From: Nemertoderma westbladi
Taxonomy: Eukaryota > Animalia > Xenacoelomorpha
Direction of reading: 5' to 3'
DNA: 64,000 nucleotides
Assembly (NCBI GenBank): GCA_032718475.1
Contig: JAUCBJ010001154.1
Location: 62,001 to 126,000, forward strand
A model generated the notes under the pieces. It saw only the letters and a program-made list of their open reading frames with translations, searched no databases and was not told the origin of the DNA. Positions 9,298 to 58,430 of this stretch are shown in pieces; position 1 is the first letter of the stretch, and each line of letters opens with the position of its first letter. The translations under genes and the position numbers were made by a program.

Positions 9298-9705
9298 CAC
9301 TACTAGGATCGGCATGCTGCATTTTTAAGAATGCTGTGCCGGCTTGTCGACAAAATTGCGCCGCCACAACTCCCTATCACCCATGACATTTGATAGATCA
9401 TCCGCATCTTCAAGGCCAGTGTTCTTTAAGATGCGTCTCAAGAAAGTCATGGGTTGTCCACCATGCTTATTCACTCCATGAGGCTGCCAAAGTACAAGAT
9501 TATGCACTGGCTGGTCCTCACGGCGAAAGCAATGTCCTGCAAAGCGGAGGCGACTTTGTTCTAGTGTCAAGCTTGCGGGAACCAATGAGACACCTCCAAT
9601 GTTATATAGTGTCTGGTTGGAGATATGTGCATTGAACTTGACACAATGAACCCGGCGTAGCATTCTTGTGAATGTGCCATCCAAAGATTTGGTGTCCTCA
9701 GCAGT
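9298..9705 (-). mobile_element. 5'-truncated LINE (RTE-like) 3' fragment, family A
   Basis: Translation LDGTFTRMLRRV...RLRFAGHCFR...LWQP resembles an RTE-type ORF C-terminus; near-identical to copies at 24.7, 58.1 and 63.2 kb. Confidence 0.85.
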
Positions 9706-10126
9706 TAGTTAGTTAGTTATTGAATTTAATTGAATTGGGATTGAATTGTCATACGGTATATTTCACTGTATTGTTTGTTTAGATTTTGAGTGATCCACAT
9801 ATTTTTGTTTTTTTAAGTATATTTTTTTTATGAATTCCTCGTTATGTTGTTCTATCATTGCAATGAAAGATGTTAAAACAATGCGGGCTAATATAACAAC
9901 TAAGTTATTAAATTTCTGAATTATCACTGCGGAAATTCGTTCTCCATTTAATCTGAGAACCCATTGAATAACGATGTCATGACGCAAGTTGGTGTTTTCT
10001 GGCTACCAAATCTTAATTGTAAAACTTCTTAATAGTCTCTCCTGTACACACGCTAGAATGACAAACCATCCACCATCTGACAAGCCACCCTAGTCGAGCG
10101 TGGCGTTGCGTGGTGGGGGTGGGGGA

Positions 10127-11653: not shown

Positions 11654-11873
11654 CTGCGGATAAAAGAACAATTATTTTAAACAATTAAACTACCATTTTA
11701 ATATACCCACCCACCTTTACACTGTATTGTATTTCAATTTCTTGTCTTCTTTCCGATTGATCTTTTGCATATTTTTTTAATTAGTCAAATTTCAATATTA
11801 TTCTTATCTATTGTATAATATAATTGTATAATAAGTTGTATCCACACTTATTTCATTTAGGCCATAAAATAGT

Positions 11874-11975
11874 TGTGGGGCGAGCCACGAAGTTGGCGGA
11901 GCCTTAGCGAATTGACACTGTTAGAGGGTGGGTCAATTTATGCAAATAGTTGTCGTCGTCGTCGTCGTCGTCGTT

Positions 11976-12014
<39 letters not shown>

Positions 12015-12884
12015 GTCGTCGTTACGATTTTGACATGCTAATAACTTTGTCGGATTTAAAGCTGCCAAGTTGAAAATTTGTAGGTATCAATATGAGCAAA
12101 AGTTGAGATTTTTGAGAGACTTTCAGACACCATCAGTGCAATGGTCTCCCGCTAGAGGGCCACATGTCTAAACATTAAATGCCCTCCCATTTCTTTGCTT
12201 TTAATCCGTTTAAGCTGAAACTTGGCAGATATGTATTAGACCATTAGCTGTGACTTTCAAAGGAGGCGAATCCATCTGCAGTTCTCCAGTCTGCCGCTAG
12301 AGGGCCAAATGTCTGAAAGTGAAATCGTTGTCGTCGTTATGATATTGACATGCTTATAACTTTGTCGAATTTAAAGCTGCCAAGTTGAAAATTTGTTTTG
12401 TTGAAAATCAGTTCAACAGTCACCCGCTATAGGACTACTTTATGCCTGAAAGTGAATAGATTCTCCCGTCTCATTGATTTTAATCAGTTTAAGCTGAATC
12501 TTGCCATATATTCTGGACCACATGCTGCGTCTTTGTGGGGGGGGGGGGGGGGGGGGGGGAGAGATTTAATCGGTCTGCCGCTATACGACGAAATTTCTGA
12601 AAGTGAGATCCGTCTCTCATTTCGTTATCCGTTATTCAAGATGAAACTTGGCCGATGTACGTATGTACTATTCATCCATAGGCTGTGTCTTTGTGGGGCT
12701 GGAGACCCTAATCCATCTTCAGTTCTCACTATACCGCTAGAGTCAGAAATGTCTGAATAGAAATGAAAGAGGTAAAAAGTGATTAGGCGAAATCTGCTTA
12801 AAATTTGCTAATACAGTAATACTTTCGAATTAGTACTTAAATTAAATTTAAGTCACGTGCTGCGCGAAGGCCCCACTTCGTGTA
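11874..12884 (+). mobile_element. Non-autonomous DINE-1/Helentron-like element in DCX-EMAP intron 2
   Basis: Starts TGTGGGGCGAGCCACG, has a (CGT)n microsatellite and diverged internal repeats (CCGCTAGAGGGC...), and ends CGTGCTGCGCGAAGGCCCCAC..CGTGT; termini shared with 21081-21719. Confidence 0.6.
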
Positions 12885-13799
12885 ACTTATACAGGTAAAT
12901 CAAATCTTTCAGTTTGCCTCTACCAACCATACATCATTCATTACTTTACCGGGACTTTTCTATTGTTAATGTTATCTTATTTTTAATAAGATTATTAGTT
13001 ATTAAAAGAATTACACGCACAAATGTAACAAACTTTATTGCTCGCGAACTCTGTCATCTATATTACCGGTAATTCAAATTTGAAAGAGATTTTCACTAAA
13101 TTAATGTCAAAATTACTAAAAATAATCACTCACACTAAATAATTTATTAATCATTAAAAAACATTGTAAATCCACTAAAATTAATGATTTATCACTAAAG
13201 ACAATCATTTATTCACTAAATATAATCATTATTATTTATTAAATAAAATATTTACAATCACTACATCATCACACCAAATACCATCATATTGTTAGGCCCG
13301 CTACTTGAATTGTCTTGGTTGTTTCATTGTGTCACGATAAGTTCCTTGGGGTAGTACGACCTGCCGCTCAGGTTCCACCGCGATATGTCACCAGGGGCGA
13401 AAGGTTCCTGCTGAAGTATTAGATTCCTTAGAAGAAAGGATCACGTTTGTAGAGGAGCAGGATACAGAGGCAGCGATAGGGGAACCAAACCAATAAACGA
13501 AAGTTAACGTGCAGGTTAGTAAAGAGTTACAATTAGGAAAAGATTTAACTAGGTTTAAAAAGGTTAAAAAAAAAAGGTTTAACTTTAAAGGGTAGAAATT
13601 ACGTCCGTTAGGTTCTGCAGCGTTAGTTCCTTCGATTTTCAGGGAAAGGAACAGATTACAGTGACATGTTATTCTAACAAAACAATAAATGAAAGTCATT
13701 AAATCGTTTTCTAGAATTCAGTTGTAAATCAGTTGTAAATAAAAATACAACATGCTACAAAATATTTATAATACAAATACACGCAGGACCTAATGGGAG

Positions 13800-14398
13800 C
13801 AGAGATGGGGGCCGGTTTTTCACGACCCGGGCCCGTGCCCGTTAATTTTAATTTTCTAAAAATTACAGCATAAAATAAAATTTTAACTTTTATGATCAAT
13901 TTGTATACACTGATTCAAATTACAATATCACTTTGTCATCGTGAGCCACTGATCTGGTAGTTTGTGGATTAGACGATACACACGTTGTGTAGGTCTGCCA
14001 TGTTTACATTTACTGTATGTTTGTTGTTTAAAATGAAATAATGTGCGTGCCTCATCGTTTTAGTTTCGATTACTAACTACTATCAGTCTGTGTCAGACAG
14101 TATCTCAATTTCGATTCAATTGTTTATTTATAACAAAATTAAACAAAAACGCAACAAAAATAAAACAGTAACAAAGTTAAACAAAGACAAAAATAAATGA
14201 TAAAACAACCCTAGTTATAATAAAATAAAATATACATGATAAAAAAATACATCATTTTGTGATAAAAAAAAGTGTAACAAAAATTTTCATATTTTTGTGT
14301 TTTGTTAACTGGATAATATAATTATTCAACAATAGCGGGCTTTCCAATAATTAGAATGTGGCCCAAACCCGGCCTGGCCCGGCCCGTGTCCATCTCTG
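13800..14398. mobile_element. hAT-like MITE
   Basis: TIR CAGAGATGG/CCATCTCTG, subterminal GGCCC repeats, 8-bp TSD AATGGGAG/AATGGGAA. Confidence 0.8.
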
Positions 14399-14887
14399 AA
14401 TGGGAATGACCAAAGGACCCAATGACGTGACCATTTAAAGCTGCAGTGGGACCTAATGCGAAATGGAAGGTGATTATTTTTAGAGAAAAATGATTAAAAT
14501 TTGTGGAATGTGAATAAATTTAGTGGAAAGTAATTAACTTTTAAATTAATTTAAGTGCAATATCATTATATTTAGTGGATAAATAATTAATATTGGAGCA
14601 ATCTGGTCTCAGGGAGATGATAATGTTACAGTAACACGCTATTCTAACCAAAACAATAAAATAAATTCAATAGCACAGGTTATAGTATATTTTTAAATCA
14701 GTAGTAATTTGTAATCAGCTGTTATTTGCGTCGATATTCCCCTGTAGAGGGATGAAATTTGAATGTATCAGGTGCGCCCCTTAGCGGCCCCCTACAGTAG
14801 TTGATGTACACACAACGGGGTATTGCTCGCTACAATTTCAGCCCTGTTGGATATTATTTCAATAATTAATTAATTAATTATATTTAC

Positions 14888-15335
14888 CATTCCCAATATT
14901 ACGAGTGTCGATAGAGTAGCACTGCTCCATATGCGTATCGGCGCCACGTTGGGATTCCCCGATAGACTCGCTTGTTGCCCAGTAACCACAGTCTCCTGGT
15001 CTGGATGGACGTCTAGACAGGAAATATCCTCTGTGTGGCCGAAGTAGTGTCTCTGTTTGTCCAGATCCTGGTTGTATATCACGGCTACGGTACCCACGTG
15101 GTACACAATCTCAGAGGAACCCAAAGTGTGTAAGTTATTCCGGGTATCGTAACCACGGTAACCGTATACCCAATCGAGAACCGGCTTGCGATCGGGCGGG
15201 AGGCCTTTCTCTTCCCATTGGGAAAGTTTGTCAGTTGAGGGAACGTAGAAGGACCTCTCCATCCCGTGAATGTTCACTGTTATCGTTTCTTCTAGATCAT
15301 CAGCTGTGTCATCTCTATCAACCATTGCGTCGTAA
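14888..15335 (-). CDS. DCX-EMAP-like protein, exon 2 (HELP motif and first WD40)
   Basis: LDWVYGYRGYDTRNNLH HELP motif and QRHYFGHTEDISCL; acceptor ..AATAATAG (phase 2), donor ATG|GTAAAT (phase 0). Confidence 0.93.
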
Positions 15336-15788
15336 CTATTATTGCGAAAACAAGAAATTTAGTAAATTTAGGAACTTTATTATTTTAGACAATAAATATT
15401 TAAGTTTATTTTGTGGTAATTCGTAGGATCGTACAATACTGTATATTCCACATTCGATAATAAAACGTAACGGAAAACACTCTTTTCCACTCATTTTCTT
15501 TAGCGAAATTCACAGATATTCCGCCCTAGTGTATTGAGTTTTTGTTGAGTTTGGTATTCTAGTAAACTCCTGTAAAACTCAAGCGCTCGAACAGAATAGT
15601 TGAATTTGGCTAATCTGAAAATGAGTGAAAAAATCGGTGTACTCCGCTTACTTTTTATAAGTTTAGTCCATTCCGTTCCGATGGCCTTAATCTTTCTCTC
15701 CAATGGTCCACATATATTTTACTCATATATATCTGCACTCAGTTTACCAATTCGGTTGTTGAACTGATATATCACTAACTGCACTCAC

Positions 15789-17674
15789 CTTACTAACGCA
15801 TCCTGCGATATTGTACTCATCTCCCTTGAAGAGGATCCAAACAACTTCTGCCTTTCCGTGGCCCCGTCCGTGGTGGAAGCTTGGTACCCCGCTCCTCCGG
15901 TGTCTGTCTGCACTGTATCCGGTTTCCGGGACAACGAGTAGCTACCGCCGTATCCGTTGCGATGCTGGTCTTTATTTCGAGCGCTCCGCCCTTGATAATA
16001 ATTAGACACTGGTTTGTCCACAGGGATCTCGTTTTGTATATGTGTTACATCTCGCAGCGCTTCGTGGCCACAACAAATGAATTTATCATTTTTCGCGCTG
16101 TCGCTTAGTAGTTGAGAGACGCTGGTGATCCTCCCGCCCGTCTGCATCGAGTACAGCCTACGAATCGGGGGGCTAGCCATGTGAATTGTAGAGCCCATCG
16201 AGTTTAGTATTTGTTCAAAAGTTTGTTTAGTTTTCGGGTGTATTAACACTCTGCCTTGACTTTGTCTGTGGGTGTTACTTACGACATTTATATACCGCGG
16301 CTTTGAAGTGTGAAACACAGGTTTCGGTGATCCATTGCCATCTTGCGACGATGATAATGAATTAGAATGATCGCTTATCTCACGTCCTTTGTAAAGTAAC
16401 GTGTCCGTCTGTCGTCTGCCCCCTCCCGGCTGGAGATTGACCCAATGATTCTCTTTGGAATCTCCATAGCGACAACCAATCACAAAGCTCCCGCTCGCAC
16501 AAACGTATGATTTCTCGTGTTGTAGTTCTATGACCTCGTTCACTGGCTCTCCGTTCATTTTGTATAGGTACCTCACCCCGCAAGGCAAAGATATCTTTTC
16601 ACTTAGATAAACTAAAAGTGTCTCTAGAATTGGGAATTTTTTAAGGGAAATCGCCGTGGAGTAGCCGCGGAACTGAGAGTCCCCGTTGCGATAGAAATGG
16701 CACATATTGGCGCGATGGTGCACTATAAGTGGTAGACGCCTTTGTCTTACCTCGAAATTCCTCGGTAGAGGAATTTCGACGTCCAAATCTCCGCTGTTTG
16801 GGCTTTCCAGCTCAACATCCTGTCGATTCAAATGTTTTTTCGTGTTCCTGTTTTCGCCTCTTTGAAGCCTGGGGATTTGGCTCCGAGAACGATCTCTTTG
16901 TGAGCGATTTGTTTGGTCAATAATGCTCCTCTTATTATCAAGTTCACCGTCGTAAACAATAACTGGTATATTGTTTGCATCATTCATTGCTGTCCTCGAC
17001 ACATTGCGATTATGTGCGGGTTTCCTTGGTGATAGAACTTTCGCAGGGCTCCTGCGTATCGCGTAACTATCCCCCGCGATATCATCGGGTATTTCCTTGC
17101 GACCGAGTAGCGCCTGCGCGCGATACACTGCCGATTGTCGGGCCGGCAGATCCTCGATATTTAGGTTGGTTCCCGACTTGGGCCGATCGCTTCGCAGCCC
17201 CGAACGCTCGCTGACGGCAGACCCGTACCGCGAACGCGGCCGGTCCCCTTGCGAGCCGATCACGTGGAGCGTCGAGGGATTTTGATCCCTGGGGACGGTG
17301 ACCGAGATGGGGATCCTCACATCTTCGTTGTCGTCGACACCACGCGAACCATCGACGAAATCCCACAGAGCTTCAACGTTAATATCAACGTCCTTTTGAG
17401 TGATGTCCTCTACAACGTTGATAACGTCATGTTTATTGGTCCTCGCTTCCAACAGCTGTCTGCCCTCAATATTGTAGTAATCGTTACCGATATTAATAGT
17501 TATTGTTTTCAAACCGCTGGTCCGTTCCTCTTGTAACGAATGTATCATGTATCCAGGAAGGCTAATATGGACAGGAATTGTTGTTGCATGGTTATCGGTG
17601 ATCACTCTACTATCTTTATCTTGAGAGAACCGCTGATCACCCACATATACATCAACATTGTCTGTCTGACTCAT
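15789..17674 (-). CDS. DCX-EMAP-like protein, exon 1 (N-terminal region plus two doublecortin domains)
   Basis: DCX1 FYRNGDSQFRG...GVRYLY...SYVCAS; DCX2 PRYINVVSN...TFEQIL...IRRLYS...FICCGHE; donor AG|GTGAGT phase 2. The three exons total 3861 nt (1286 aa plus stop). Confidence 0.9.
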
Positions 17675-18029
17675 CTTAACATTAACTAGAATACTTCACT
17701 GTATTAATATTATTATACTACTACTGTTTTTAAATGAATAGTTAGAGGAAAAGTGAGAATGGAAACGACTACAGTAATTTTATAAAGTGCTTTACTCCAC
17801 TAATAATCGAAACCTCAGTGCAAGATATAATAGCACTAAACTAATAAAACTTAAAAACGTTTTGATATTTACTTTATATCATCTTATATCGAAACGGTAG
17901 GATATGACATTTTGAATTGGTTATGTTATTGCCGTTGTGATATAATTTGTTCTGAAGTTTCGATTCCCAACTGGAACAACAACAACAGCAAGTTCAGTAA
18001 TAGTGTTGAGGCTGCAAAAAAATATATTT

Positions 18030-20778: not shown

Positions 20779-21163
20779 TACTACTACTACTACTCTACTA
20801 GGTCGAGCGAACTCGGACAGTGGAAATGAGATCCTTCCAGGCTTCCCGATTCTCCATAAGTTGTCGCAATTTCGTTTTTCCCAAGTTCAGTATCCCTTTC
20901 AAGTTGATCTATATATGTTATGGCCGGTCGTCCACGACTACGCTTTCCATGAGTTGGTTGCCAGAAAAGTAGATCTGGTATGACCTCGTCTTTACTTCGC
21001 CAGCAGTGCCCACTGAATCTTAATCTGCGTTCACGGAGGGTGGTTGATACAGGTGGTATTGTACCATAAAGCGCGGCGTTTGTGGGGCGAGACACGTAGT
21101 CGGCGAGCCTTTGCATACGGTTCATATAGGGCAAATGGGGCATGTCCGTCTGTCTGTCCGTCT

Positions 21164-21196
<33 letters not shown>

Positions 21197-24744: not shown

Positions 24745-25251
24745 GATTATTTAGAGCAGCAGTAGTTCCCGTACTCCTCTATGGGAGTCCATTCTGGGCT
24801 CTAACTGCTGAGGACACAAAATCTCTGGATGGCACATTCACAAGAATGCTACGCCGGGTTCATTGTGTCAAGTACAATGCACACATCTCCAACCAGACAC
24901 TATATAACATTGGAGGTGTCTCATTGGTTCCCCCAAGCTCGACACTAGAACAAAGCCGCCTCCGCTTTGCAGGACATTGCTTTCGCCGTGAGGACCAGCC
25001 AGTGCATAATTTTGTGCTTTGGTGGCCTCATGGAGTGAATAAGCATGGTGGACAGCATATGACTTTCTTGAGACGCATCTTAAAGGACACTGGCCTTGAA
25101 GATGCGAATGATCTAGCAAATGTCATTGGTGATAGGGAGTTGTGGCGGCGCAATTTATTCGACAAGCCGGCACAGTATTATTAATATATATGTAATGTAT
25201 ATATATAATGGAGCTGCAATGCAGCATGCCGATCCTAGTAGTAGTAGTAGA
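24745..25251 (+). mobile_element. RTE-like LINE 3' fragment, family A
   Basis: LFRAAVVPVLLYGS..W.LT....SLDGTFTRML..RLRFAGHCFR; ends in (TAG)n. Confidence 0.85.
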
Positions 25252-25654
25252 GTAAATGTTTCGTACCTGTCACCATACCCGAACTGGTGCACTGCACATG
25301 TACCTTTATCAAAAGCGATAATAGCTAATCCAAGTGTCTAAATAAACTCATCCAAGGTGAATTCAGGAGGTTAAACAGTACTACATTATATCTCTCTCAA
25401 TGATTTTAATTATTGATAGTAACAATGTGTTGGCAAGCTGTATTTTTCGAGGTGTTTGTTATTATACATTTATTATAGGAAGGGATCTAGGGGTCTTTAC
25501 CTCGAATGATAAGTTTATTTTACCGAAAATAACTTATCTTTTATTGGCGCAATTGTAGGACTAATCCCATCACATGCGTACTTTTTAACCGGGTAGTGTA
25601 CAAATTTAAGAATCGCGTAATTTTTCTTGAAATTAATATCTCATATCTCTCCAA

Positions 25655-25697
25655 ACCACGTACGCGTTTCGACCTTACTGGGTCTCATCAGCGTGGT
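25655..25697 (-). ncRNA. Type I hammerhead ribozyme
   Basis: Minus strand reads ACCACG CUGAUGA GACC-CAGUAA-GGUC GAAAC GC GUA CGUGGU: intact core, stems I and II, short palindromic stem III. Confidence 0.9.
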
Positions 25698-26067
25698 GTC
25701 GGATTCGAACCTGGGACCTCGAGGTGGAAGCCGAGACTACAACCACTAGGCCACAGGTTCTTGAGATATGGAGTATTAATTTCAAAGCCAGCTGCCATTT
25801 TATTAGCCCCTGAGTTTTTTGATTATTGATAGTAACAATGTGTTGGCAAGCTGTATTTTTCGAGGTGTTTGTTATTATACATTTATTATAGGAAGGGATC
25901 TAGGGGTCTTTACCTCGAATGATAAGTTTATTTTACCGAAAATAACTTATCTTTTATTGGCGCAATTGTAGGACTAATCCCATCACATGCGTACTTTTTA
26001 ACCGGGTAGTGTACAAATTTAAGAATCGCGTAATTTTTCTTGAAATTAATATATCATATCTCTCCAA

Positions 26068-26110
26068 ACCATGTACGCGTTTCGACCTTACTGGGTCTCA
26101 TCAGCGTGGT
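26068..26110 (-). ncRNA. Type I hammerhead ribozyme, second tandem copy
   Basis: Same core; one substitution in the stem I 3' strand (CAUGGU). Confidence 0.85.
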
Positions 26111-26177
26111 GTCGGATTCGAACTCTCGAATATCTCTCTCAATGATTTTAATACGATGTTAAGATTTGATGATAAAT

Positions 26178-33299: not shown

Positions 33300-34157
33300 A
33301 ATCCATGCGGAACTCATACTAAGAGATCCATGTGGAACTCATACTAAGGGATCCATGTGGAACTCATATTAAGAGATCCATGTGGAACTCATACTAAGAG
33401 ATCCATGTGGAACTCATACTAAGGGATCCATGTAGGACTCATTCTAAGAGATCCATGTGGAACTCATACTAAGGGATCCATGTTGAACTCATACTAAGGG
33501 ATCCATGTGGAACTCATACTAAGGGATCCATGTGGAACTCATACTAAGGGATCCATGTGGAACTCATACAAAGGGATCCTTATGGAACTCATACTAAGGG
33601 ATCCATGTTGAACTCATACTAAGGGATCCATGTGGAACTCATACTAAGGGATCCATGTGGAACTCATACTAAGGGATCCATGTGGAACTCATACTAAGGG
33701 ATCCTTATGGAACTCATACTAAGGGATCCATGTGGAACTCATACTAAGGGATCCATGTTGAACTCATACTAAGGGATCCATGTGGAAGTCATACTAAGGG
33801 ATCCGTGTGGAACTCATACTAAGGGATCCATGTTGAACTCATACTAAGGATCCATGTGGAACTCATACTAAGGGATCCTTATGGAACTCATACTAAGGGA
33901 TCCATGTGGAACTCATACTAAGGGATCCATGTTGAACTCATACTAAGGGATCCATGTGGAACTCATACTAAGGGATCCTTATGGAACTCATACTAAGGGA
34001 TCCATGTGGAACTCATACTAAGGGATCCATGTTGAACTCATAATAAGGGATCCATGTGGAAGTCATACTAAGGGATCCATGTGGAACTCATACTAAGGGA
34101 TCCATGTGGGACTCATACTAAGGGATCCTTATGCAACTCATACTAAGGGATCCATGT
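33300..34157. repeat. 25-bp minisatellite, about 34 copies
   Basis: Unit GGGATCCATGTGGAACTCATACTAA. Confidence 0.96.
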
Positions 34158-34415
34158 CATTACGGGTGTCACTACGGGCACCACTACGGGTGTCACTACG
34201 GCTACCTACTACGGGTACCGATTTCAGACTTTTGACAGACTACATGTGTACCATGATTATTGATAGTAACAATGTGTTGGCAAGCTGTATTTTTCGAGGT
34301 GTTTGTTATTATACATTTATTATAAGAAGGGATCTAGACTATCAATAATCAAAAATCAGGGGCTAATAAAATGGCAGCTGTCTTTGAAATTAATACTCCA
34401 TATCTCAAGAACCTG

Positions 34416-34468
34416 TGGCCTAGTGGTTGTAGTCTCGGCTTCCGCCTCGAGGTCCCAGGTTCGAATCC
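34416..34468 (+). promoter_or_regulatory. tRNA-derived internal Pol III promoter (A box and B box)
   Basis: A box TGGCCTAGTGG 34416-34426; B box GGTTCGAATCC 34458-34468; anticodon-arm-like hairpin with CTTCC loop between them; no proper acceptor stem. Confidence 0.8.
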
Positions 34469-34471
34469 GAC

Positions 34472-34514
34472 ACCACGCTGATGAGACCCAGTAAGGTCGA
34501 AACGCGTACGTGGT
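34472..34514 (+). ncRNA. Type I hammerhead ribozyme (predicted cleavage after GUA, 34508)
   Basis: ACCACG/CGTGGT stem I, CTGATGA, GACC/GGTC stem II, GAAAC, ACGCGT palindromic stem III. Confidence 0.9.
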
Positions 34515-36303
34515 TTGGAGAGATATGAGATATTAATTTCAAGAAAAAATTACGCGATTCCTAAATTTGTACACTACCCGGTTAAAAAGTACGCATGTGA
34601 TGGGATTAGTCCTACAATTGCGCACAAAAGATAAGTTATTTTCGGTAAACTAAACTTATCATTCGAGGTTAAGACCCCTAGATCCCTTCTTATAATAACA
34701 TGTGTACCAAGTTCGGTTTATTTACGTGGACGGACTGACGGACAGACAGACTGATAGACCGCTCGACGAACAATGTTAGAAACATCGGACCCCGCATTCA
34801 TAGATTACCACGGTATATAAGTCTTGGATGTGTCTATGATTGGCCCCTATAGGGATCCATAAATGTTTTTTCTTTATGAAATAATGAAACTTTTTCCGAA
34901 ATGTAAAAAAGTTACCTTTTTTTAATAATATGTACTAATAAATAACTTTGTATAACTAACACACATTGGTATATTATAAATTATTTAAATATATTATACA
35001 ACACAGTTGCTCTTAGTCATAAATACTGCAGCAAAATGATTATCATCTTATTATTACTATGGTAACTATACTCTGAGCCAAAAGTAAACGTACTACTTAT
35101 TAGCTCTGTTGATTAATTAAAGGAAAGGACCAGGTTACAGCGGCACGTTATTTTAACCAAAACAATAATGGACGTGATACTACGTAAACTTTTGGCTCAT
35201 AATAATATTGAATATAATATATACTGTAGTGTTAATTTAATATATTATGCACTAATATGCTTCGAGAATATAGTTTTACATTGTACAGTAGTTGTGTAAC
35301 TTCGAAACAATTAGACAAAGCAATTAGTTGTTTTTGAACAATCTGCTAGCAGCAACGTTTTTTTATAAATATCACTATACACATTTTAATAGCTGACATT
35401 ATAATATTATATATGGGAAAAAACACTAAATTCAGATAGACAACCGCTTAGCTCGACATTAAATAATAAATTGCACATACTATATCATACCAAGCTACTC
35501 TACAGAGATTGTCGAAGCCAACTTCATAAGAAAACAAATACGTAAACATTCATTACCATTTAGTTTATCTGTCGTTTGTTTTTGATGGATGAAACACAAA
35601 ATATGAAAAAATAACTATGTTTTTAGACCACTTTTATTAAAACTACCAACAACTGCACCTACATCGCGACGACGACGATATGGTTGGTTTTATTAACAAT
35701 CTTGTAACAATATGCAAATAGCATTTTACTGGGGGGTCGGGTAGCGCCCCCAAATACAACTTTTCATTGTGACGTTTCCGCAGCCTAAAATTGAGTGAAA
35801 ATTGAAGTTAGTGCTACCAAATATCGTCTGGGGAGTTTAGGAATGGCCAAACCAATTTTTGTTGGGAGCCTTTTTGCTGGGCCTTATTCAAATGAAAATA
35901 TCGTGCTGCTCGAAGGCTTGTCAAAAAACAGAATAGCTTTTACGTTTTAACCAATAACTCTATAGTTTCAGAAATAGATATAGATAATAGATATGAGAAA
36001 TATGCTTGCAGATTTGAAATCGGCATTACATTCGGCACAGGATAGGATCATATTCAAAAATACGGGGTCGCTACCCCCCCCCCCCCCCCCCCCCTTAATT
36101 AAAGATTTTTCACTTTACAAATAGAGTCATCACATCAACTTCTAATTTTGTATTGCGCAACTTGTTTACTTACCGTAAAATAAAATAATATTCGTATAAT
36201 AACTGAACTACTGCACCTATTACATTACTTACACGTTGTAAGTAACAATCACTACTGCTTGTAATGTTGTTACTGTAGACTTACTGTATGAGTATACGTA
36301 GTA

Positions 36304-36767
36304 TCAATAGGCACAGGGTGTGTTGTGTTCCAGTTCGCCAGTCATCCAACCCAATTCTCCGTAAGTGTAACCGTGGTCTGGTCTCATTCCCGGCGCATTC
36401 ATTCCCCCAGGGGGCCCCAGTCGAGGGCCTTCCCCTATGCTGATGGGCCCACCCGGTAGACACGGCACTGTTGAGAGGTTCGGGTGAAGGTAGGGGGGCG
36501 CGTTCTGATTGGCTAATAGTTGTGGAGGAAGTACAGGGGAAAATCCCAAGGGGAAACAATTGGAGGGGGCGCTAGCCATTCGGTTGCAGAAGTACTGATC
36601 GGGGGAGGGGAATATTGCGTCCACTGGGACGGCGTTAGTGGTGGAAGGCGACACATTGTGATGGCCAATAGTTGATACCGATAAGTCGGCGCTAGGAGGC
36701 GTACTACATTCGGATGGCGACATATTGTGTTGTAACTTGTTGCCATTATTGTTGTTTTCCATTGAAG
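36304..36767 (-). CDS. LHX3: LIM/homeobox Lhx3/4, last exon (Pro/Ser-rich C-terminus)
   Basis: Acceptor TTTTATTTTCAG phase 1, in frame with the 152-aa ORF, ends W..ELEH..CAY*. Confidence 0.8.
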
Positions 36768-36831
36768 CTGAAAATAAAAAGAAAAAAAATGAATCATTCG
36801 TGGTACAAACCAGAATTATATTTTACAAGAG

Positions 36832-36966
36832 TAATGGTAAACTGTAATGGTAATGGTAAACTGTAATGGTAATGGTTAACTGTAATGCCGTAATGGTAAT
36901 GGTAAACTGTAATGGTAATGGTAAACTATAATGGTAATGGTAAGCTGTAATGGTAATGGTAAACTG
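36832..36966. repeat. (GTAATG)n/GTAAACT low-complexity repeat in an Lhx3/4 intron
   Basis: Directly visible tandem motifs. Confidence 0.85.
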
Positions 36967-37016
36967 TCTGCTTTCAATTTATACATTCAATGAGTTTATT
37001 TATATGATTTACTTAC

Positions 37017-37151
37017 AGTCAAACTCTCCGGAGAAACAACTCAACGGAGATGATGGCGGCGAATCCATATTGTCGAGAATATCGCTTCGGTTCATTATTC
37101 TAGAACGCTTAGATGGGCGGGAAATACCGTGGTGCGTAAATGAATTAGCGC
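37017..37151 (-). CDS. LHX3: Lhx3/4, post-homeodomain exon
   Basis: 135-nt open exon between TTTAAG and GTAAGT, phase 1-1, compatible with both neighbours. Confidence 0.75.
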
Positions 37152-37268
37152 CTTAAATAAATATTAATGTTTTGGTTGTATTTGTAGATATAGATGATAT
37201 ACGTAATATAATGAAAATAAAAAAACAATTACTTATTGATGGATTAAATGTAAATTGTAATTAATTTA

Positions 37269-37610
<342 letters not shown>

Positions 37611-37696
37611 TTAGTAAACTTATTGTTGCAAAGCATGGATTTATAATTCTAATAAATCAATGATCCGTATGTATATGTAAGCAGCTGGTTTATTAC

Positions 37697-37899
37697 CTCT
37701 TTGCCTCGCCAATTCGTAGTCAGCTTTGCACATTAGTTTATTATCCTCCATTAGGTAGAACTCGTCCCCAGTTGCCAACTCGCGTCGACACAGCACGCAC
37801 ACGAAACAGTCGAGATGGTAGGTCTTATCCTGAGCCCGTCGGACTATCTCCGTAGATGGGATCCCTTTATCGCAACCGGCGCAACGCGTACCAAACCGA
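37697..37899 (-). CDS. LHX3: Lhx3/4, LIM2 exon (missing from the ORF track)
   Basis: Hand translation RFGTRCAGCDKGIPSTEIVRRAQDKTYHLDCFVCVLCRRELATGDEFYLMEDNKLMCKADYELARQR; AG/GT boundaries, phase 2-1. Confidence 0.96.
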
Positions 37900-40284
37900 C
37901 TAAATAAATTAACGATTTATAATGTTTAACGTTTGTTTGCACACCATCCACTCAAAAAGCGACAGATTTAACAAACAGTAATATATTTATTTCAAATTTA
38001 CTTTAATCGTTATTCCAGTATTTCAGGAATAACTATTTGAATATTCCTACGAATAAATTTATGGAAATGAAACCGAGGGATCTTATTTTCTTTAAAATGG
38101 CGATTTTCACCTTCAAATTTGTCTTAAACAAAAACAATAAAATAACGGATGTTCTAGTACCGCGATATAACATTGCTGTAACATCTGCTATCTGTATCAT
38201 CAGTAACCGTTATTTATTTTCATTTATAGTATTTAGGGGGTCTGGTATTGTCAGACACACCACATATCCATCGTCTACAGGTACTACATGGGAGCCAAGT
38301 GTGAATGAATCCGGGATGCTTTACAAGTACTACGTTGCGGAGCGTTGGTCCACTGTGGGCGAGGGAAGGTGAAACAGTAATATTGTCTATTGTGGAATTT
38401 ATAATAACGTTTTACATGAAAATTAAATAGCTTTATTTCCCGCATCATCCATTGATATATAATTATCCGGTTGACCGATATCGCTCGGCAAATTATAAAT
38501 CTCGGGGATTTCGGGAAAAAATAATCATAATAATAGTGATTTCCATCTCATCATAATTTAAATTGGAATTTAATTTATTTTTAAAGTTAGCAATCGTCGG
38601 GCAAAAATTAGGCAAATTGTCCTTGTGCATATCAGTTACCACGGGTTTCGTTATAGTTAAGTTGACCTTGTTCACTGCTCGACGAGGCGGGTTTGTCCTT
38701 GTGGAGGCGGCGTTCGATTAGGAGCGGTTACTATCGGAGTTATTGCTCCATTTGTCATCTTTTAGTTGATTCGGACCAACACCTACTGCCCGAAACCCAT
38801 TAACAGATTGTGCTACAAACCTGACCCACGCTCCGCGCTCTCGCGGCCTTTAATCATGGCCAAGCGCATTTGTATATCGCGAGTCGGTCAATGATTGTAT
38901 GGCGCTGGGCCAAGCGGATCAAGCGGGCCTTTAACATGGGGGCTATGTGTCGCGTGGCGAGGTTTACCTGAGAGAAAGTTGGCCTAATCCGTCGCGTGCG
39001 GTTTCACGGCCAAGCCATAATCAATCCCCACTGATGCCGGAATATTCTCAGGGTGAATGGGGCGGGATCGCGCGCGAATCTAGGCGTTATGTTTTCATTG
39101 TGTATAATCATACAGAGGCCATAGTGCGTTAGCGGCATCTCTATCTCTACCCACCCGGCACAACTTAATGAGCTTTGGGAACCCAGCCTACACATTATAC
39201 ATCGAGTTAAGTTCGTAAAACTTTTCTAAACTTAATCTCTACAAGGACAAAAGACGGAGATTTACTCTAAGCTCTTTCCAGAATTTTCTTAATTCCCGAA
39301 GCATTGGTTATATAGGAACTGCGTTCGGCTTTATTTATTGTACGACCGGTTGTATTGCTTCACTCTCAAGACAGATTTGTGAGTTGGCTTTCAGGCAGGC
39401 TCAAAGTTTATTTCGATGCGTAGGTTTAAAGGCATCAATGGGAGGTTGAGTTTAGGCAAGCCAAGGTTGCCCTTGTCAGGATGTCACTGTGAGTAAATTG
39501 ATTAGTTCGGTACCTTCGGAAGGTAATCCCTAAGCATAATTCGTGGTGGAGTTACTGGAGTTGGAGAGATTTATAGGAGACAAGGTTGGCATAATACTAA
39601 CTCGACGCGTCCAGCTTTCCCTTAGGAATAAAAATGCTAAAGAAAATAAACACACCACAAAGGCCAATTTTTGCCGAGTCAAGAGAAGAGACTACATCAC
39701 ATAGAGTCTTCCGTACTCTTCTCCACAATAAAAAAAAGTTAATAAAATCAATGTGATCCACTAAACGCGAACTACATAATTACGATCTCCGCGATATCGT
39801 TTATTTATTGATGCTGTTTTGTTTACTTCAAATAAGTCATTTCATTGTAGGTCAAGTAACATGGTTTCAACAATGGTTTATTGAAATTAGTGTCTTTTGA
39901 CTTACGGGTTTTTACTATTTGCAGAAAAGGCGCGAAATTTTCAAATTGAAATTTCACCAAGTGACTTGCGGCTTTTGTCATCATATGGCTGTATCCTACG
40001 GAATTAAAGCAGAATTTAATGAGGATTTCAAATCTGAACATGACTTGGCGAGATCTGTTTCTATGCATTTTCATTAATCACCTGAAGAAGCCCTCCTGAT
40101 GGGAGAAATCTAGTAATCTAACTGTTGTTACTAATTCCATTAGTCATCTGAGGTCAACCCGCCCTACCTTAACTGTTTAGTATAATTCCTTCTTAAGTGC
40201 TTTAAGCGAAACGAGATCGCTTTTAGATTTCGAGTTATCACTGTTTCTCCATGTCCGCCGGTCTGACCGTCAACATGTAAGTTT

Positions 40285-42977: not shown

Positions 42978-43236
42978 GCGCAGCTTGGTCTAGTGGTGAC
43001 ATTCCTGGGCTTCCAATTAGGGAGCCCTGGTTCGATCCCTAGATGGGGCAGCACTATTTGGGCACAGTGCTTTAAATGCTGCAGCCTAGCCCAACCCCGG
43101 CTTTCATCCTTCAGTGGTCGATAAATGGGAACCAAGGCAACTTGGGAAACAGAGTGGAGGGGTTTACTGTGGAAGATCACCCATGGTGGTGAAGAGGCAT
43201 TCCTTGGCTTAACGAGCCTAAAATATTCTCCCAATA
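42978..43236 (+). mobile_element. tRNA-derived SINE, apparently full length
   Basis: A box TGGTCTAGTGG, B box GGTTCGATCCC, central GCTTTCATCCTTCAGTGGTCGATAAATG block; truncated copy at 45568-45785. Confidence 0.8.
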
Positions 43237-45567: not shown

Positions 45568-45785
45568 TGCAGCCTAGCCCAACCCCGGCTTTCATCCTTC
45601 AGTGGTCGATAAATGGGAACCAAGGCAACTTGGGAAACAGAGTGGAAGGGTTTACTGTGGAAGATCACCCATGGTGGTGAACAGGCATTCCTTTAGGAAA
45701 CAGAGTGGAATGGTTTACTGTGGTAGATCACCCATGGTGGTGAACAGGCATTCCTTGGTTTAACGAGCCTAAAAGATTCTCCCAT
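45568..45785 (+). mobile_element. 5'-truncated copy of the 42978 SINE with an internal duplication of about 60 bp
   Basis: Near identity to about 43080-43233. Confidence 0.85.
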
Positions 45786-48700
45786 TCATTATAATTTTTT
45801 CGGTTGTGTTTTAAGCTTGATTTCTTATTAAATTTATCTGTCCAACTCCACCGAGCATGAAATACAATGCAATTTTTTTTTCGTTCAAACACCACCACTG
45901 CAACCTGCCCTTTTCCCTTAACTTTTAAATTACACTGAACACACGATCCTGGTATTTGTGACAATTTTGCACAGATATCTCCGTTACACAGATCGTGAAG
46001 AACATTTAGGCTCCCATGTGACTAAATACCAGGTTTTCAGTATGAATAATTTATATTTAAAATTTCACCTTAGCGCTTATTTCTATCTTATAACTTTTAC
46101 AGATACTTATTCGTTTATTGTTTTGGTTCGATCCAGCCCTTCTGTAACTTGTGTTTATAGTGAAAAACTGGTATTCTTCAAATGGGGGTAAACTGCAAAG
46201 TGAAATGTAACAGCAGAAAGTTTGGTATACCTCAAATTAGGTTGCATGATGACAGGCATAACGGCAATAAAATGTTCAAGTTAAGTTATCGGTGAACGTG
46301 AAACAACTTCACCCCGCACCCACCACCCAATCACAAGCCTGGTTTCCATATCACGGGGCACTGGGCAGCTGGCGAGCGAACCCCAGTTTCGAAATTTCAT
46401 CAGGTTCTTACTGGTACCTGGTACCTCCCAGCTATCGCAATTATGCTTCGTATCCTTTACAGTATATTGAACTTCAAATTATAATCGCAATATTTTGGCA
46501 CCGGGACCAGCATCAGTTGGGGTATTACAGTATATTAAATTGTCCTAATCTTTGCTAATGATATTCTTACTATTCAGTTAGGCGTAGGTCCGACTGAAGT
46601 GACCAAATCAATCATTATAGGTATTTAGTATCAGTTTGGTGTACCGGTAGAGGACTTAACCAGAATTCAGTATAGGTAGGTACTTTTTGACGTACTACTT
46701 AAAATTAGGTGTGCACCAAATAACGGTTTAGTATCGGTATTATGAACTTACCCAAATCATTAGGCAGGTACTTAGTATCTGTTTGTCCTATGTGGTTGTT
46801 TAATGCCCCCTCTCGTATCGGCATCATACCGACTTCCAGGCAGTGATGCATAAGCTTATTATTTATAAATTAAAGATTGGTTTGAGAATGATTAATAAAT
46901 CCAATACTTTTCACCAACATAAATAAGGCTGTTAGGAATACGAATTCTTCGCGATCCGTATATTACACGTTGCTGATTCCAGTTAATTTGATATAGTGTG
47001 ATAATTGATAATAATTTAGGAAATTAATTTTTTAACAATAACTGAATTATTTTGAGTGGTTGGTATTACAGTAACGACTACTACGGAAATTATTTATTAT
47101 CACTATAAGATAAAATGTTGTATCAAGGACTTTTTTTTATGTTTACTATATGAAGTTGTGCGTAATAAGAGTGAGTGTGGACTCTCTGCCTAAGCTCCAC
47201 CTTTATATTCTCTCTCACGAAACCTTTGAAAGTATCCTCATACTTTCCACCAACTACAGCCTGCTATTGGCTGAGTGCGGGCCCTTTACCGTATAAGTGC
47301 CAATGAGAATGCATGCCATTTGCCTAGCTTGCTGTAGCACAGGTAAAACCGGTATGCTTCGGGGAAGCTTATAGAATCTCGTTCACAGCCGCAGCCCAAC
47401 TAACAATGTGCGTGCGACTGTATGGTACTAAACTCTACTGTGCAATATTACTGTAGATAAGGTAAATACAGTAGGTATATCGCTTTATGGATATGCGTCC
47501 GTTGGCTGGTCTTTGTTTTTTCCTCTGAGTTCAACCCACTTCTTGTATGATGTAGGTTTTCTTTGCTGGCGGCCGCGCCACCCAACCCCATCCGATTGCC
47601 TTTGGCAAGCTCTTCTATGGGATCCTCACTGCAGCAGTTCTAAGACTTCCCAATATCTACCAACTTCCTATACCATAAGTAAGAGAGGAGAAGTCAGCCC
47701 AACAACATACTTAGCGGCCATCAATTATTGCCGTTGCTATAAATAAACCTTATTTAGCCAAAATTACCTACACAATGGGGTACATTTGCTTTCCTAATCT
47801 CATAAACAATTAAGTGTTTAAAGATGGAACGTCATTGACTATAATGACTTTGAAATATGAAAAAATATATTTTCACCCCATAAAAGGGAAAAGCTCGAAA
47901 ATCACCATGGTAAACACAATACATTATTTTTCATTGTTCTTCCTAAACAATTTATTCTTTAATGGAACGTTTTTTTATCCGCGGATCCCAAATTGCTTTG
48001 TTAATTAATTATTAATTATTAATCATTGGAAAAATTTTGATGTCGATCGTTATATCGGTCTGTGGTGAAGAGATCCTCATGCAGTTCCTCGGACACGGTC
48101 ACCGTCCATGGTTCCGAAGGTGAAGACTTTGAAAAAAAAACATTTTTAATGAATACCTGTTTTTGATGAAAACTTTTAATTGAAAAACGAAATAGAAATG
48201 AGAAGGCCCATCCACTAGGTAGTTGGGAATCAAAACTTCCCCTTATAAATTATAATAAGCGTAAATAATAAATTGGGCTATCGCGCTATTTATTGCAAGA
48301 ATAATATTGCAAGAGAAGCTAGCAGTAGTGTGTTATCTTGCGGCTTTTCTTAAAACAATAAATTAATCACATGAGATACCATAACCCTACATACAGCACA
48401 ATTAATTAGCACCGGTATAACCGTCACCGTTCTTTGGACTAACAACTTAACACAATCAAAATACAACCTTCTACGGAGAAAAATCAACGCAAATAACAGT
48501 TGATTGCGAGCAAAATTTAAACTGTATGTATGCTATTAACTTAGTTAATTGGTTTGGTTAGAGTAACATGTTATTGTAATATATCATTTCCATGACAGTA
48601 ATTAATTTATTATTGAAATTTTTAATTCATCTGGACAAATATTAATTTACAAAGATGGAAAAAGAAAGTCATCAAAGATTGAAGTATTGTTTATCCCTGT

Positions 48701-52952: not shown

Positions 52953-53097
52953 TATAAAGTGTTCACTGTTCAACTTTGCGAGTTAGTTTGACGCTCCTCT
53001 CTCTACCTTACAGGAAACAGCCAAGAGAGAGGAGCCAACGGATTGCCACCGATGTTGATGATGATGTTGATGTATAAAACAGAGATCGGAATTAAAT

Positions 53098-53706
53098 AAA
53101 AAAGTAAACTTATAATTCAGATACTGTTACATAGTATTAAGTAAAAAAAGTAAACTTATAATTCAGATACTGTTACATAGTCTTAAGTAAAAAAAGTAAA
53201 CTTATAATTCAGATACTGTTACATAGTATTAAGTAAAAAAAGTAAACTTATAATTCAGATACTGTTACATAGTCTTAAGTAAAAAAAGTAAACTTGTAAT
53301 TCAGATACTGTTACATAGTCTTAAGTAAAAAAAGTAAACTTATAATTCAGATACTGTTACATAGTCTTAAGTAAAAAAAGTAAACTTATAATTCAGATAC
53401 TGTTACATAGTATTAAGTAAAAAAAGTAAACTTATAATTCAGATACTGTTACATAGTCTTAAGTAAAAAAAGTAAACTTGTAATTCAGATACTGTTACAT
53501 AGTCTTAAGTAAAAAAAGTAAACTTATAATTCAGATACTGTTACATAGTATTAAGTAAAAAAAGTAAACTTATAATTCAGATACTGTTACATAGTATTAA
53601 GTAAAACAAGTAAACTTATAATTCAGATACTGTTACATAGTCTTAAGTAAAAAAAGTAAACTTATAATTCAGATACTGTTACATAGTATTAATTAAAAAA
53701 AAGTAA
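53098..53706. repeat. 46-bp AT-rich minisatellite, about 13 copies
   Basis: Unit AAAAAAGTAAACTTATAATTCAGATACTGTTACATAGT(A/C)TTAAGTA. Confidence 0.96.
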
Positions 53707-58089: not shown

Positions 58090-58430
58090 GACTTGTGCTA
58101 CTTTGGATCATGGATCCGGAAGTCAAGTTATGGCCTTCCTATACGTATGGGAAAAGCATGGGCAGCATTGAATAGTCTGAATGTCAAGGTTCGATTATTT
58201 AGGGTTGCAGTAGAACGAGTACTGAAATATGGGAGTCCATGTTGGTCTCTAACTGCTGAGTACACCAAATCTCTGGATGGCACTTATGGAAGAATGCTAC
58301 GCCTGGTTCATTGTGCCGAGTACAATGAACACATCTACATTTCTAATCAGAACTATACAACATTGGATTTGTCTCATCAGTCCCCCCAAGCTTGACACTT
58401 GGACGGTGCCGCCTCCGCTTTGTTGGACAT
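58090..58430 (+). mobile_element. Diverged RTE-like LINE fragment related to family A
   Basis: YFGSWI..RMGKAWAAL..RLFRVAVERVLKYGS..WSLT...SLDGTYGRML. Confidence 0.8.

What the first reader, a model, noticed from the sequence alone, without database searches (positions are those of the whole stretch)
34338..34697. tRNA-like Pol III promoter fused directly to a hammerhead ribozyme in a 413-nt mobile unit (SINE-retrozyme hybrid)
Seen: A box (34416-34426), B box (34458-34468) and, 3 nt later, a complete type I hammerhead (34472-34514) that replaces the tRNA 3' acceptor strand. The module occurs at two loci (three ribozyme copies), each with a TSD and no coding capacity. Established: tandem non-coding hammerhead repeats (non-LTR retrozymes, newt satellite 2, schistosome SM-alpha) make self-cleaved and circular RNAs; SM-alpha is a precedent for a Pol III link. 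Inference: this is a self-transcribing, self-processing, non-autonomous retroelement family that may be undescribed in this lineage.
Basis: partly seen in the sequence, partly recalled or inferred. Interest (0 to 1): 0.9.

Follow-up and report, generated by a model that had tools for sequence, protein, structure and literature searches.

The report
tRNA-promoter hammerhead retrozyme, Sm-alpha style
This is one copy of a young, abundant, non-coding 410-413-base jumping repeat of an animal, in which a tRNA-like promoter sequence sits directly before a hammerhead ribozyme motif, so it likely transcribes itself, likely cuts and closes its RNA into circles and is likely pasted back by a borrowed retrotransposon enzyme, a design already known from blood flukes.

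Summary
The A box, B box and type I hammerhead are at the stated coordinates, and neither pattern arose in 100 shuffles. There are two insertions, with target-site duplications of 12 and 23 bp.

Corrections: the locus runs 34254-34697 and includes an 84-nt inverted piece carrying the element's real 3' end. The unit is 413 nt at the second locus and 410 nt here. The tRNA-like head is degenerate; it is predicted to fold as a hairpin inserted in a long stem I, not as a cloverleaf.

New evidence from public runs: the family is high-copy, and 3' ends pile up at one site (20 of 368 and 33 of 379 partly matching contigs). A diverged relative keeps B box plus hammerhead nearly unchanged (1 difference in 80 nt). 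The two pieces here cover the unit exactly once, as twin priming on a circle would give.

The design (Pol III promoter, then hammerhead, in tandem) is that of schistosome Sm-alpha, so this is a new member of a known kind. The scan noted a similar family in another genome (e1-9924037). Cleavage, Pol III use, circles and the partner enzyme are unshown.

The parts
34242..34253 (.). Left target-site duplication of locus 1 (12 bp)
34254..34337 (-). Primary (first-primed) piece of the insertion: last 84 nt of the unit on the minus strand, ending 2 nt past the family's common 3' end
34338..34697 (+). Inverted upstream piece (360 nt): leader, tRNA-like head, hammerhead, body; overlaps the primary piece by 14 and 20 nt at its two ends
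34384..34406 (+). 5' arm of the long extension of stem I; pairs with 34520-34542
34409..34468 (+). Degenerate tRNA-like head; 34409-34462 predicted to fold as a hairpin inserted in the 5' strand of stem I
34416..34426 (+). Pol III type-2 A box
34458..34468 (+). Pol III B box; its last 3 bases also start extended stem I
34466..34519 (+). Type I hammerhead with extended stem I; core 34478-34484 and 34499-34502, stem II 34485-34498, palindromic helix III 34502-34507, predicted cut after 34508
34520..34542 (+). 3' arm of the long extension of stem I
34639..34642 (+). Only T4 run on the sense strand of the unit; a possible leaky Pol III terminator
34698..34709 (.). Right target-site duplication of locus 1
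25409..26123 (-). Locus 2: 5'-truncated head-to-tail insertion of about 1.7 units, period 413 nt, two hammerheads (cores at 26104 and 25691), one complete head (A box 25753-25743)
25388..25410 (-). 3'-side TSD of locus 2 (23 bp, overlapping the element end by 2 nt)
26130..26152 (-). 5'-side TSD of locus 2 (23 bp)

Best explanation
This is an insertion of a young, high-copy, non-coding tandem repeat of 410-413 nt carrying A and B boxes directly before a type I hammerhead, which is likely transcribed by Pol III from its own internal promoter, is predicted to self-cleave (probably as a dimer) into unit-length RNAs that would be ligated into circles, and is likely copied back into the genome by a borrowed reverse transcriptase, probably a Penelope-like one. 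Steps. (1) Inferred: in a tandem array, Pol III starts near 34409, just upstream of the A box, and reads through the single T4 into the next unit. (2) Predicted: in the RNA the head folds back as a 54-nt hairpin that hangs off a stem I of about 33 bp, so it does not disturb the ribozyme. (3) Predicted: two neighbouring hammerheads pair through their palindromic helix III and cut after GUA. The released monomer begins after the cut and ends with leader, head and the 5' half of the ribozyme, so the promoter lies at its 3' end. (4) Inferred from other retrozymes: a host ligase closes the monomer into a circle. (5) Shown as a DNA pattern, inferred as a mechanism: reverse transcription starts at a fixed site 252 nt downstream of the cut, beside an A-run, primed by nicked target DNA. 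It runs round the template for a variable distance, giving permuted, 5'-truncated, head-to-tail insertions with 12-23 bp TSDs. At this locus a second priming event made an inversion. Only insertions holding a complete head followed by two hammerheads could be new sources of the circle. Neither locus in the window qualifies unless read through from a host promoter.
For: Boxes and hammerhead exceed chance: 0 hits in 100 shuffles. Fold of 34380-34546: z -5.73, 0 of 200 shuffles as stable. Circular monomer: z -4.1, 0 of 200. Pairing probabilities in a 126-nt precursor: stem I 0.76-0.97, extension 0.87-0.99, stem II 0.99-1.0. Helix III is a 6-nt palindrome and all 36 pairs of a dimer model are standard; this matches the canonical metazoan type I described in PMC4209133 (passages). 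TSDs and two independent insertions, 96% identical (359 of 373). Summed contig depth is about 2e5-7e5 over the unit against 37-42 on the flank in run X1. 3' ends with unrelated flanks at 25408-25410: 20 of 368 partly laid contigs in X1 and 33 of 379 in X2, against about 1.3 expected if uniform; both window insertions end within 2 nt of that site. Tail-to-leader joints occur in X1, X2 and X5. A diverged relative in X7 has 1 difference in 80 nt over hammerhead plus B box, against 13 in 96 over head and leader in a second contig (Fisher p=0.0035) and 5 in 41 in the tail of the same contig (p=0.017); the body between did not align at 80%. The two pieces of locus 1 cover the unit once, with overlaps of 14 and 20 nt, and the second junction shows target-to-unit microhomology. 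The same design is described for Sm-alpha.
Against: No cleavage, Pol III or circular-RNA data. No listed holder is on record as RNA. The Rfam score is below gathering. A T4 lies 231 nt after the predicted start and could end many transcripts before the second hammerhead. Scarcity of T-runs is not significant (P 0.58 for at most one T4, 0.69 for no T5). Within the species, 0 of 11 variant places at 1% or more fall in boxes or hammerhead, which is not significant (p 0.14). The relative rests on 3 contigs of depth 3-10 from one metagenome; 3-4 differences per head contig are not listed by position, and one contig has changes that break two pairs of the head hairpin. The circle is 56% paired, below the 'above 70%' stated for retrozyme RNAs. 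The loose-end table shows 20 of 526 rows, and the uniform null ignores AT richness. No partner enzyme was identified: 0 RT or GIY-YIG hits among 89 ORFs scanned in the window. In a preprint, 8 of 9 predicted Xenopus retrozyme dimers did not cleave in vitro.
Confidence: 0.72

Rival explanations
1. Same retrozyme, but the tRNA-like head is a passenger or purely structural piece; transcription comes from read-through by host promoters, as proposed for retrozymes in general.
For: PMC7761336 states that retrozymes do not seem to harbour promoters and may rely on read-through (passages). The head is predicted to be tied up in a hairpin and is not a cloverleaf. The B box may be conserved because it overlaps stem I. 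There is an internal T4.
Against: Both boxes match the recalled Pol III consensus at tRNA-like spacing. In the relative, the three listed A-box changes all fall at degenerate consensus positions (G>A, C>T, T>A), while 7 of 31 positions between the boxes changed in one contig. The first 8 B-box bases lie outside stem I yet are kept.
Confidence: 0.13
2. The template for integration is a linear uncleaved multimer, not a circle; the hammerhead cuts poorly or serves only to trim transcripts.
For: Head-to-tail and permuted insertions also follow from multimeric RNA (PMC6765202 passage on PLEs). Helix III cannot close as a monomer. Circles were not observed.
Against: The inverted piece stops within 14 nt of one full turn; my rough estimate is under 10% by chance on a linear multimer, from one locus only. 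A fixed internal 3' start that is not at a terminator fits either model.
Confidence: 0.08
3. The unit is the pseudo-LTR of an autonomous Penelope-like element, and these loci are its 5'-truncated tandem or inverted copies.
For: PLE insertions are 5'-truncated partial tandems, often with an inverted truncated copy, and pLTRs carry hammerheads (PMC8557442 passages). Xenopus retrozymes match pLTRs (preprint).
Against: The unit's tail joins directly to its own leader in the window and in three public runs, and depth is even across the unit. No RT or GIY-YIG ORF was found in the window. The pLTR promoters described are intron-associated with H3K4me3, not A/B boxes.
Confidence: 0.05
4. An ordinary tRNA-derived SINE with an incidental hammerhead-like sequence, amplified in tandem by DNA-level recombination.
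For: A/B boxes, TSDs and a fixed 3' end are SINE traits. SINE-derived satellites exist (PMC10702118, search listing only).
Against: The head is internal: 69 nt of unit sequence lie between the 3' end site and the next A box, and Pol III could copy them only by read-through or from a circle. The hammerhead is the best-conserved part in the relative.
Confidence: 0.02

Closest known systems
Sm-alpha / Sj-alpha SINE-like hammerhead retroposons of Schistosoma (PMC6765202, PMC2770079, PMC4918200: passages read; Ferbeyre 1998 not held)
   Same: tRNA-related Pol III promoter followed by a type I hammerhead; tandem and dispersed copies; promoter ends up at the 3' end of the cleaved monomer, so single copies cannot propagate; high copy number.
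   Different: The schistosome repeat carries a full tRNA-Gln (Glu in that paper's figure legend) that tRNAscan detects; here the head is too degenerate for ARAGORN default or Rfam and is predicted to refold as a hairpin inside stem I. Unit 410-413 nt. The host does not look like a schistosome: none of the named rows among 13 hits for a neighbouring gene was a flatworm, and the best were amphioxus and sea cucumber at 46-48%. Sequence homology to Sm-alpha was not tested.
Metazoan non-LTR retrozymes (Cervera and de la Pena 2020, PMC7229834: passages and Discussion read; Li et al. preprint 10.64898/2026.07.22.740005: parts 1-3 of 5 read)
   Same: Type I hammerhead in each 150-450 bp tandem unit, GC below 50% (38.7%), no LTR, long TSDs, non-coding, stable predicted circle.
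   Different: Carries internal A and B boxes, whereas PMC7761336 says retrozymes do not seem to harbour promoters. Shows a defined 3' priming site, which the passages read do not describe. Slightly longer than the reported 170-400 nt RNAs.
Penelope-like element pseudo-LTRs and their non-autonomous derivatives (PMC8557442, PMC4209133: passages read)
   Same: 5'-truncated partial tandems, an inverted truncated copy, hammerhead with a short palindromic helix III.
   Different: No RT or GIY-YIG ORF; canonical-size helices I and II rather than a minimal hammerhead; no 30-40 bp tail seen (14-nt overlap only).
L1 twin-priming insertions (PMC2837659: passages read)
   Same: Two oppositely oriented fragments of one element between TSDs, with microhomology at the second priming site.
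   Different: L1 cases usually lose internal sequence and have a poly(A) tail. Here nothing is lost, both junctions are duplicated (14 and 20 nt), and there is no poly(A).

Membership tests
Metazoan non-LTR retrozymes | Type I hammerhead in each repeat unit | tested here: met
   3 cores in 3 units; Rfam HH9 E 2.1e-4 but below gathering; one copy has a stem I mismatch
Metazoan non-LTR retrozymes | Tandem repeats of 150-450 bp, GC below 50% | tested here: met
   Period 413 nt, GC 38.7%; tail-to-leader joints in X1, X2, X5
Metazoan non-LTR retrozymes | Non-coding | tested here: met
   Longest ATG ORFs 52 and 36 aa; the 2 longer stop-to-stop frames over locus 2 had no Pfam hit
Metazoan non-LTR retrozymes | TSDs longer than 4 bp | tested here: met
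   12 and 23 bp
Metazoan non-LTR retrozymes | Stable self-paired monomer | tested here: met
   Circular fold z -4.1, 0 of 200 shuffles; only 56% paired
Metazoan non-LTR retrozymes | No PBS or PPT | not tested
   No LTR arrangement is seen; PBS and PPT were not searched for
Metazoan non-LTR retrozymes | Expressed as linear and circular unit-length RNA | tested here: inconclusive
   One run guessed to be RNA (X4) holds a single 441-nt contig that closes on itself; tandem DNA would give the same
Metazoan non-LTR retrozymes | Self-cleavage | not testable with these tools
   Needs in vitro transcription
Sm-alpha / Sj-alpha family | Pol III promoter followed by hammerhead, in tandem units | tested here: met
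   against the description
Sm-alpha / Sj-alpha family | Full, recognisable tRNA-Gln-derived head | tested here: not met
   No tRNA by ARAGORN default or Rfam E<=10; relaxed ARAGORN draws an anticodon loop read as Gly|Arg. It works like Sm-alpha but is not filed in that family
Sm-alpha / Sj-alpha family | Sequence homology to Sm-alpha or Sj-alpha | not testable with these tools
   No tool returned those sequences
Sm-alpha / Sj-alpha family | Transcription by Pol III | not testable with these tools
   Needs inhibitor, ChIP or mutation tests
Classical tRNA-derived SINE | tRNA-derived head at the 5' end of the element | tested here: not met
   The head is internal, 69 nt after the unit boundary set by the common 3' end
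Classical tRNA-derived SINE | Internal A and B boxes | tested here: met
   also the best non-self match, among 1704 windows, to a second tRNA-like head at 42983
Classical tRNA-derived SINE | Poly(A) or simple-repeat tail shared with a partner LINE | tested here: inconclusive
   Fixed 3' end beside an internal A-run, no poly(A) at either locus; no LINE partner was available to compare
Autonomous Penelope-like element | ORF with RT and GIY-YIG domains between pseudo-LTRs | tested here: not met
   0 RT or GIY-YIG hits in 17 + 72 ORFs of the window; the rest of the genome was not available
Autonomous Penelope-like element | Partial tandem and inverted 5'-truncated insertions | tested here: met
   Locus 2 partial tandem, locus 1 inversion; shared with LINE twin priming, so not diagnostic

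The most novel reading that the evidence does not exclude
An animal lineage unrelated to schistosomes independently captured a tRNA-derived Pol III promoter inside stem I of a retrozyme hammerhead, making a self-transcribing RNA circle with a defined reverse-transcriptase entry site. Locus 34254-34697 is the footprint of two reverse transcriptases meeting on one circle. If such Pol III retrozymes are widespread in invertebrates, they answer how retrozymes reach high expression without a known promoter, and they give a direct genomic test of the circle-template model.
Probability: 0.35. Interest if true: 0.65.

Novelty: new member of a known kind. Interest (0 to 1): 0.45.

Why it matters
How animal retrozymes are transcribed and which enzyme mobilises them are open questions in the papers read. 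In those papers the schistosome repeats are the only case with an embedded tRNA. A young, high-copy family outside schistosomes, with clear A/B boxes, a fixed 3' priming site and clean TSDs, is a good system for testing three things: Pol III transcription, circle-templated target-primed reverse transcription, and the partner element. The design itself is not new.

Tried and rejected
Whole-genome copy survey: no genome is held.

Rfam and ARAGORN: the gathering scan found 0 matches; the Rfam tRNA model gave no match at E<=10 on 96 bases. Relaxed ARAGORN (-ps80) calls the head but also 34 other places in the window (36 in all), so it is not evidence. The slipped acceptor stem it draws has pairing probability 0, so I rejected a cloverleaf/hammerhead switch.

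Selection tests: T-run avoidance as a sign of Pol III read-through was not significant. Within-species depletion of variants in boxes and hammerhead was not significant (p 0.14).

RNA evidence: no RNA holder listed. X4 (organism B, RNA only by guess) holds one 441-nt contig at depth 13.8 whose first and last 30 nt are the same unit positions, that is a closed 411-nt cycle. Tandem DNA carried over at low level would look the same. X8 and X10, guessed RNA runs of that study, hold next to none of the words, and I laid no silent-stretch control, so I do not count X4 as expression.

Relatives elsewhere: a B-box-plus-hammerhead pattern gave 1 locus in viral contigs and 12 in metagenome contigs. None of the 13 aligns with the unit at E<=0.01. 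The three that looked tRNA-linked do not form stem II; they are chance matches.

Host identity: a second protein search gave nothing at E<=1e-60 or 1e-15, and the Atlas gave only generic doublecortin clusters, so the lineage is unresolved. Empty-site alleles were not seen; X2 and X5 do not cover the 3' flank of locus 2.

Literature: 10 searches. No paper I opened describes a tRNA-headed hammerhead repeat outside Schistosoma, and searches returned 0 papers. Subscription journals, Repbase and Dfam are not covered, two papers were not held, and no supplements were read; the retrozyme sequence tables of PMC7229834 and of the preprint could bear on novelty.

Full report
OBSERVATION. The sequence shows an A box at 34416-34426, a B box at 34458-34468 and a type I hammerhead at 34472-34514. 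Stem I is ACCACG/CGTGGT, the core is CTGATGA ... GAAA, stem II has 4 bp with a 6-nt loop, and the triplet GUA ends at 34508. Rfam aligns 34462-34529 to Hammerhead_HH9 at E 2.1e-4, 26.6 bits, below the gathering score of 52; the gathering scan of the whole window found nothing. My pattern for A plus B boxes (a recalled consensus) hit 3 places in the window and my type I hammerhead pattern hit 2; both gave 0 hits in 100 dinucleotide shuffles. The third core at 26104(-) failed the pattern because a G>A at 26072 breaks one stem I pair. The feature is real.

TWO INSERTIONS. Locus 2 (26123 to 25409, minus strand) is a head-to-tail array of about 1.7 units with period 413 nt. It is truncated at the B box of the first unit and lies between 23-bp TSDs. 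Locus 1 is larger than reported. Between 12-bp TSDs (34242-34253, 34698-34709) lie an 84-nt piece on the minus strand (34254-34337) and a 360-nt piece on the plus strand (34338-34697). Together they cover the unit exactly once, with overlaps of 14 and 20 nt, implying a 410-nt unit. The minus piece ends 2 nt past the 3' end of locus 2, so it is the first-primed piece and the reported interval is the inverted one. At the far end of the plus piece, the TSD resembles the unit's continuation. Two inverted fragments between TSDs, with microhomology at the second priming site, is the twin-priming pattern (PMC2837659 passages). PLEs also make inverted truncated copies (PMC8557442 passages). Both insertions are permuted relative to the cleavage site, so the template was a circle or an uncleaved multimer, not a linear cleaved monomer (inference). 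That the second piece stops 14 nt past one full turn favours a circle, on one locus only.

FAMILY IN PUBLIC RUNS. No genome is held. Of 12 runs listed, 7 hold the stretch or part of it, in 5 studies; X1 may be the window's own source. In X1, summed contig depth is about 2e5-7e5 across the unit and 37-42 on the flank. The tool warns that this is not a copy number. Dividing by up to 31 for overlapping contigs gives, as my rough estimate, at least several hundred and probably of order a thousand units. Contigs that leave the unit into unrelated flanks pile up at 25408-25410: 20 of 368 partly laid contigs in X1, 33 of 379 in X2 and 2 of 39 in X5. About 1.3 would be expected in X1 or X2 if ends were uniform. 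On the longer reference, X2 also showed 8 such contigs at 25822, the same unit position inside the array, so this is not an edge effect. No pile of 5' ends into unrelated flanks appears among the 20 rows shown of 526. A second 3' cluster in X2 (7 contigs at 25464) lies 7 nt from the second priming site of locus 1. Tail-to-leader joints occur in X1, X2 and X5. A fixed 3' start with variable 5' ends is what target-primed reverse transcription from a recognised RNA site gives (established for LINE, SINE and PLE insertion; applied here by inference). The site lies 252 nt downstream of the cut and 69 nt upstream of the next A box.

SELECTION. A sediment metagenome (X7) holds 3 contigs of a diverged relative. 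One matches hammerhead plus B box with 1 difference in 80 nt and the tail with 5 in 41, while the stretch between does not align at 80%. Two cover head and leader with 13 and 12 differences in 96 nt. The 11 listed changes in the head lie between the boxes (8) or at degenerate A-box positions (3). Fisher tests give p=0.0035 and 0.017 for the hammerhead region against head and tail. These are few, shallow contigs, and 3-4 differences per head contig are not listed by position. Within the species, the same test is not significant: 0 of 11 places, p 0.14.

RNA ANATOMY. Folding 34380-34546 gives z -5.73, 0 of 200 shuffles. Stem I continues through 34466-34470/34515-34519 and then through arms 34384-34406/34520-34542. 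The tRNA-like head (34409-34462) is a side hairpin in its 5' strand, in which the would-be 5' acceptor strand pairs with the B-box strand (probability 0.99-1.0). So the head looks like an insert in a long stem I, and B box and ribozyme overlap by 3 nt. Helix III is 2 bp around a 2-nt loop and is a palindrome. A dimer model closes with 36 standard pairs, as described for canonical metazoan type I motifs (PMC4209133 passages). The 413-nt monomer folds as a circle with z -4.1 but is only 56% paired. The head is tRNA-like by its boxes and by being the best non-self match, among 1704 windows, to another tRNA-like head at 42983 (score 42, 99th percentile 29). It is not a callable tRNA. Its anticodon position reads TCC here and TTC in the relative; a tRNA-Glu origin is a recalled resemblance and untested. 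One T4 lies 231 nt after the predicted start, so read-through is needed for multimers, and T-run scarcity is not significant.

HOST. The window holds a doublecortin/EML gene, a LIM-homeodomain gene and an MFS gene. The EML part's best hits are amphioxus (46%), sea cucumber (48%) and Lingula (41%), with no flatworm among the named rows of 13 hits. The host is an animal, probably an invertebrate without close annotated relatives; I could not place it further. No RT or GIY-YIG domain was found in 89 ORFs scanned (17 of the 34 ORFs of 120 aa or more, those judged not to be repeat-derived or alternative frames, and 72 of 75-119 aa).

MECHANISM. Shown in DNA: boxes, ribozyme motif, tandem and inverted insertions, TSDs, high copy number, fixed 3' end, conservation in a relative. 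Predicted: hairpin folding of the head and dimeric cleavage. Inferred from related systems: Pol III transcription, ligation into circles (RtcB-type ligase for other retrozymes; PMC7229834), and mobilisation by a PLE, with a LINE not excluded. I put the whole model at 0.72.

COMPARISON. The element meets the sequence-level features of non-LTR retrozymes that I tested. Its design equals that of Sm-alpha/Sj-alpha: promoter followed by hammerhead, tandem copies, promoter left at the 3' end of the cleaved monomer (PMC6765202 passages). It fails the 'full tRNA-Gln' feature and seems to be in another lineage, so it works like Sm-alpha but is not filed in that family. Reviews say retrozymes seem to lack promoters and name schistosomes as the one case with an embedded tRNA. 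Earlier unchecked notes of this scan report a similar family in a probable mollusc and ribozyme-free tRNA-headed tandems. I did not verify them, and they are not counted as support. No paper I opened in 10 searches describes this design outside Schistosoma; Dfam, Repbase, subscription journals and supplements were not seen.

VERDICT. A real, well-formed, young retroelement family and a new member of a known kind. The added value is the likely second origin of a Pol III-driven retrozyme, the nesting of the promoter inside stem I, and insertion footprints that make the circle-template model testable. Interest 0.45.

Noticed in passing
window 42983-43200 (+), partial copies 45568-45792: A second tRNA-like head with A and B boxes and a TCC anticodon position, followed by a body partly repeated at 45568-45792; probably a separate resident SINE family. 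Its core recalls the Deu/Nin SINE domain (recalled, untested).
   Followed up: partly
window 9325-9708, 24801-25184, 63175-63639, 58187-58430: A dispersed repeat family of about 400-470 bp, four copies at 80-94% identity in both orientations. One copy has a CTGATGA...GAAA-like string at 58380(-) that failed the hammerhead pattern.
   Followed up: partly
window 10127-17695 (-): A doublecortin-domain plus EML beta-propeller gene with very long exons (636 and 514 aa open frames), only 46-48% identical to its best database hits.
   Followed up: partly
window 36300-37916 (-): LIM and homeodomain exons of a LIM-homeobox gene, about 2.5 kb from locus 1.
   Followed up: no
window 34200-34253 and 34698-34800: Locus 1 appears to have inserted into another repeat: the flanks join across the TSD into a sequence with (GACA/GACG)n runs like those at 21143-21196, which recalls Helentron-associated elements (recalled, untested).
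   Followed up: partly
window 26124-26129 (-): Six bases between the TSD and the truncated 5' end of locus 2 resemble unit sequence just upstream of the B box with a short deletion; possibly a template jump at the end of reverse transcription.
   Followed up: no
run X5, record 22: A degenerate piece of the head and hammerhead (core mutated) embedded in a 1831-nt contig of depth 401, that is inside another repeat; older copies of the family exist.
   Followed up: no
L005 1001-1110, L010 934-1056: Prokaryotic tRNA genes followed by a hammerhead-core-like string; stem II does not form, so these are chance matches.
   Followed up: yes
window 3-5346, 6771-8691, 33301-34157, 53091-53706: Several unrelated satellites (29, 48, 25 and 46 bp units).
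   Followed up: no
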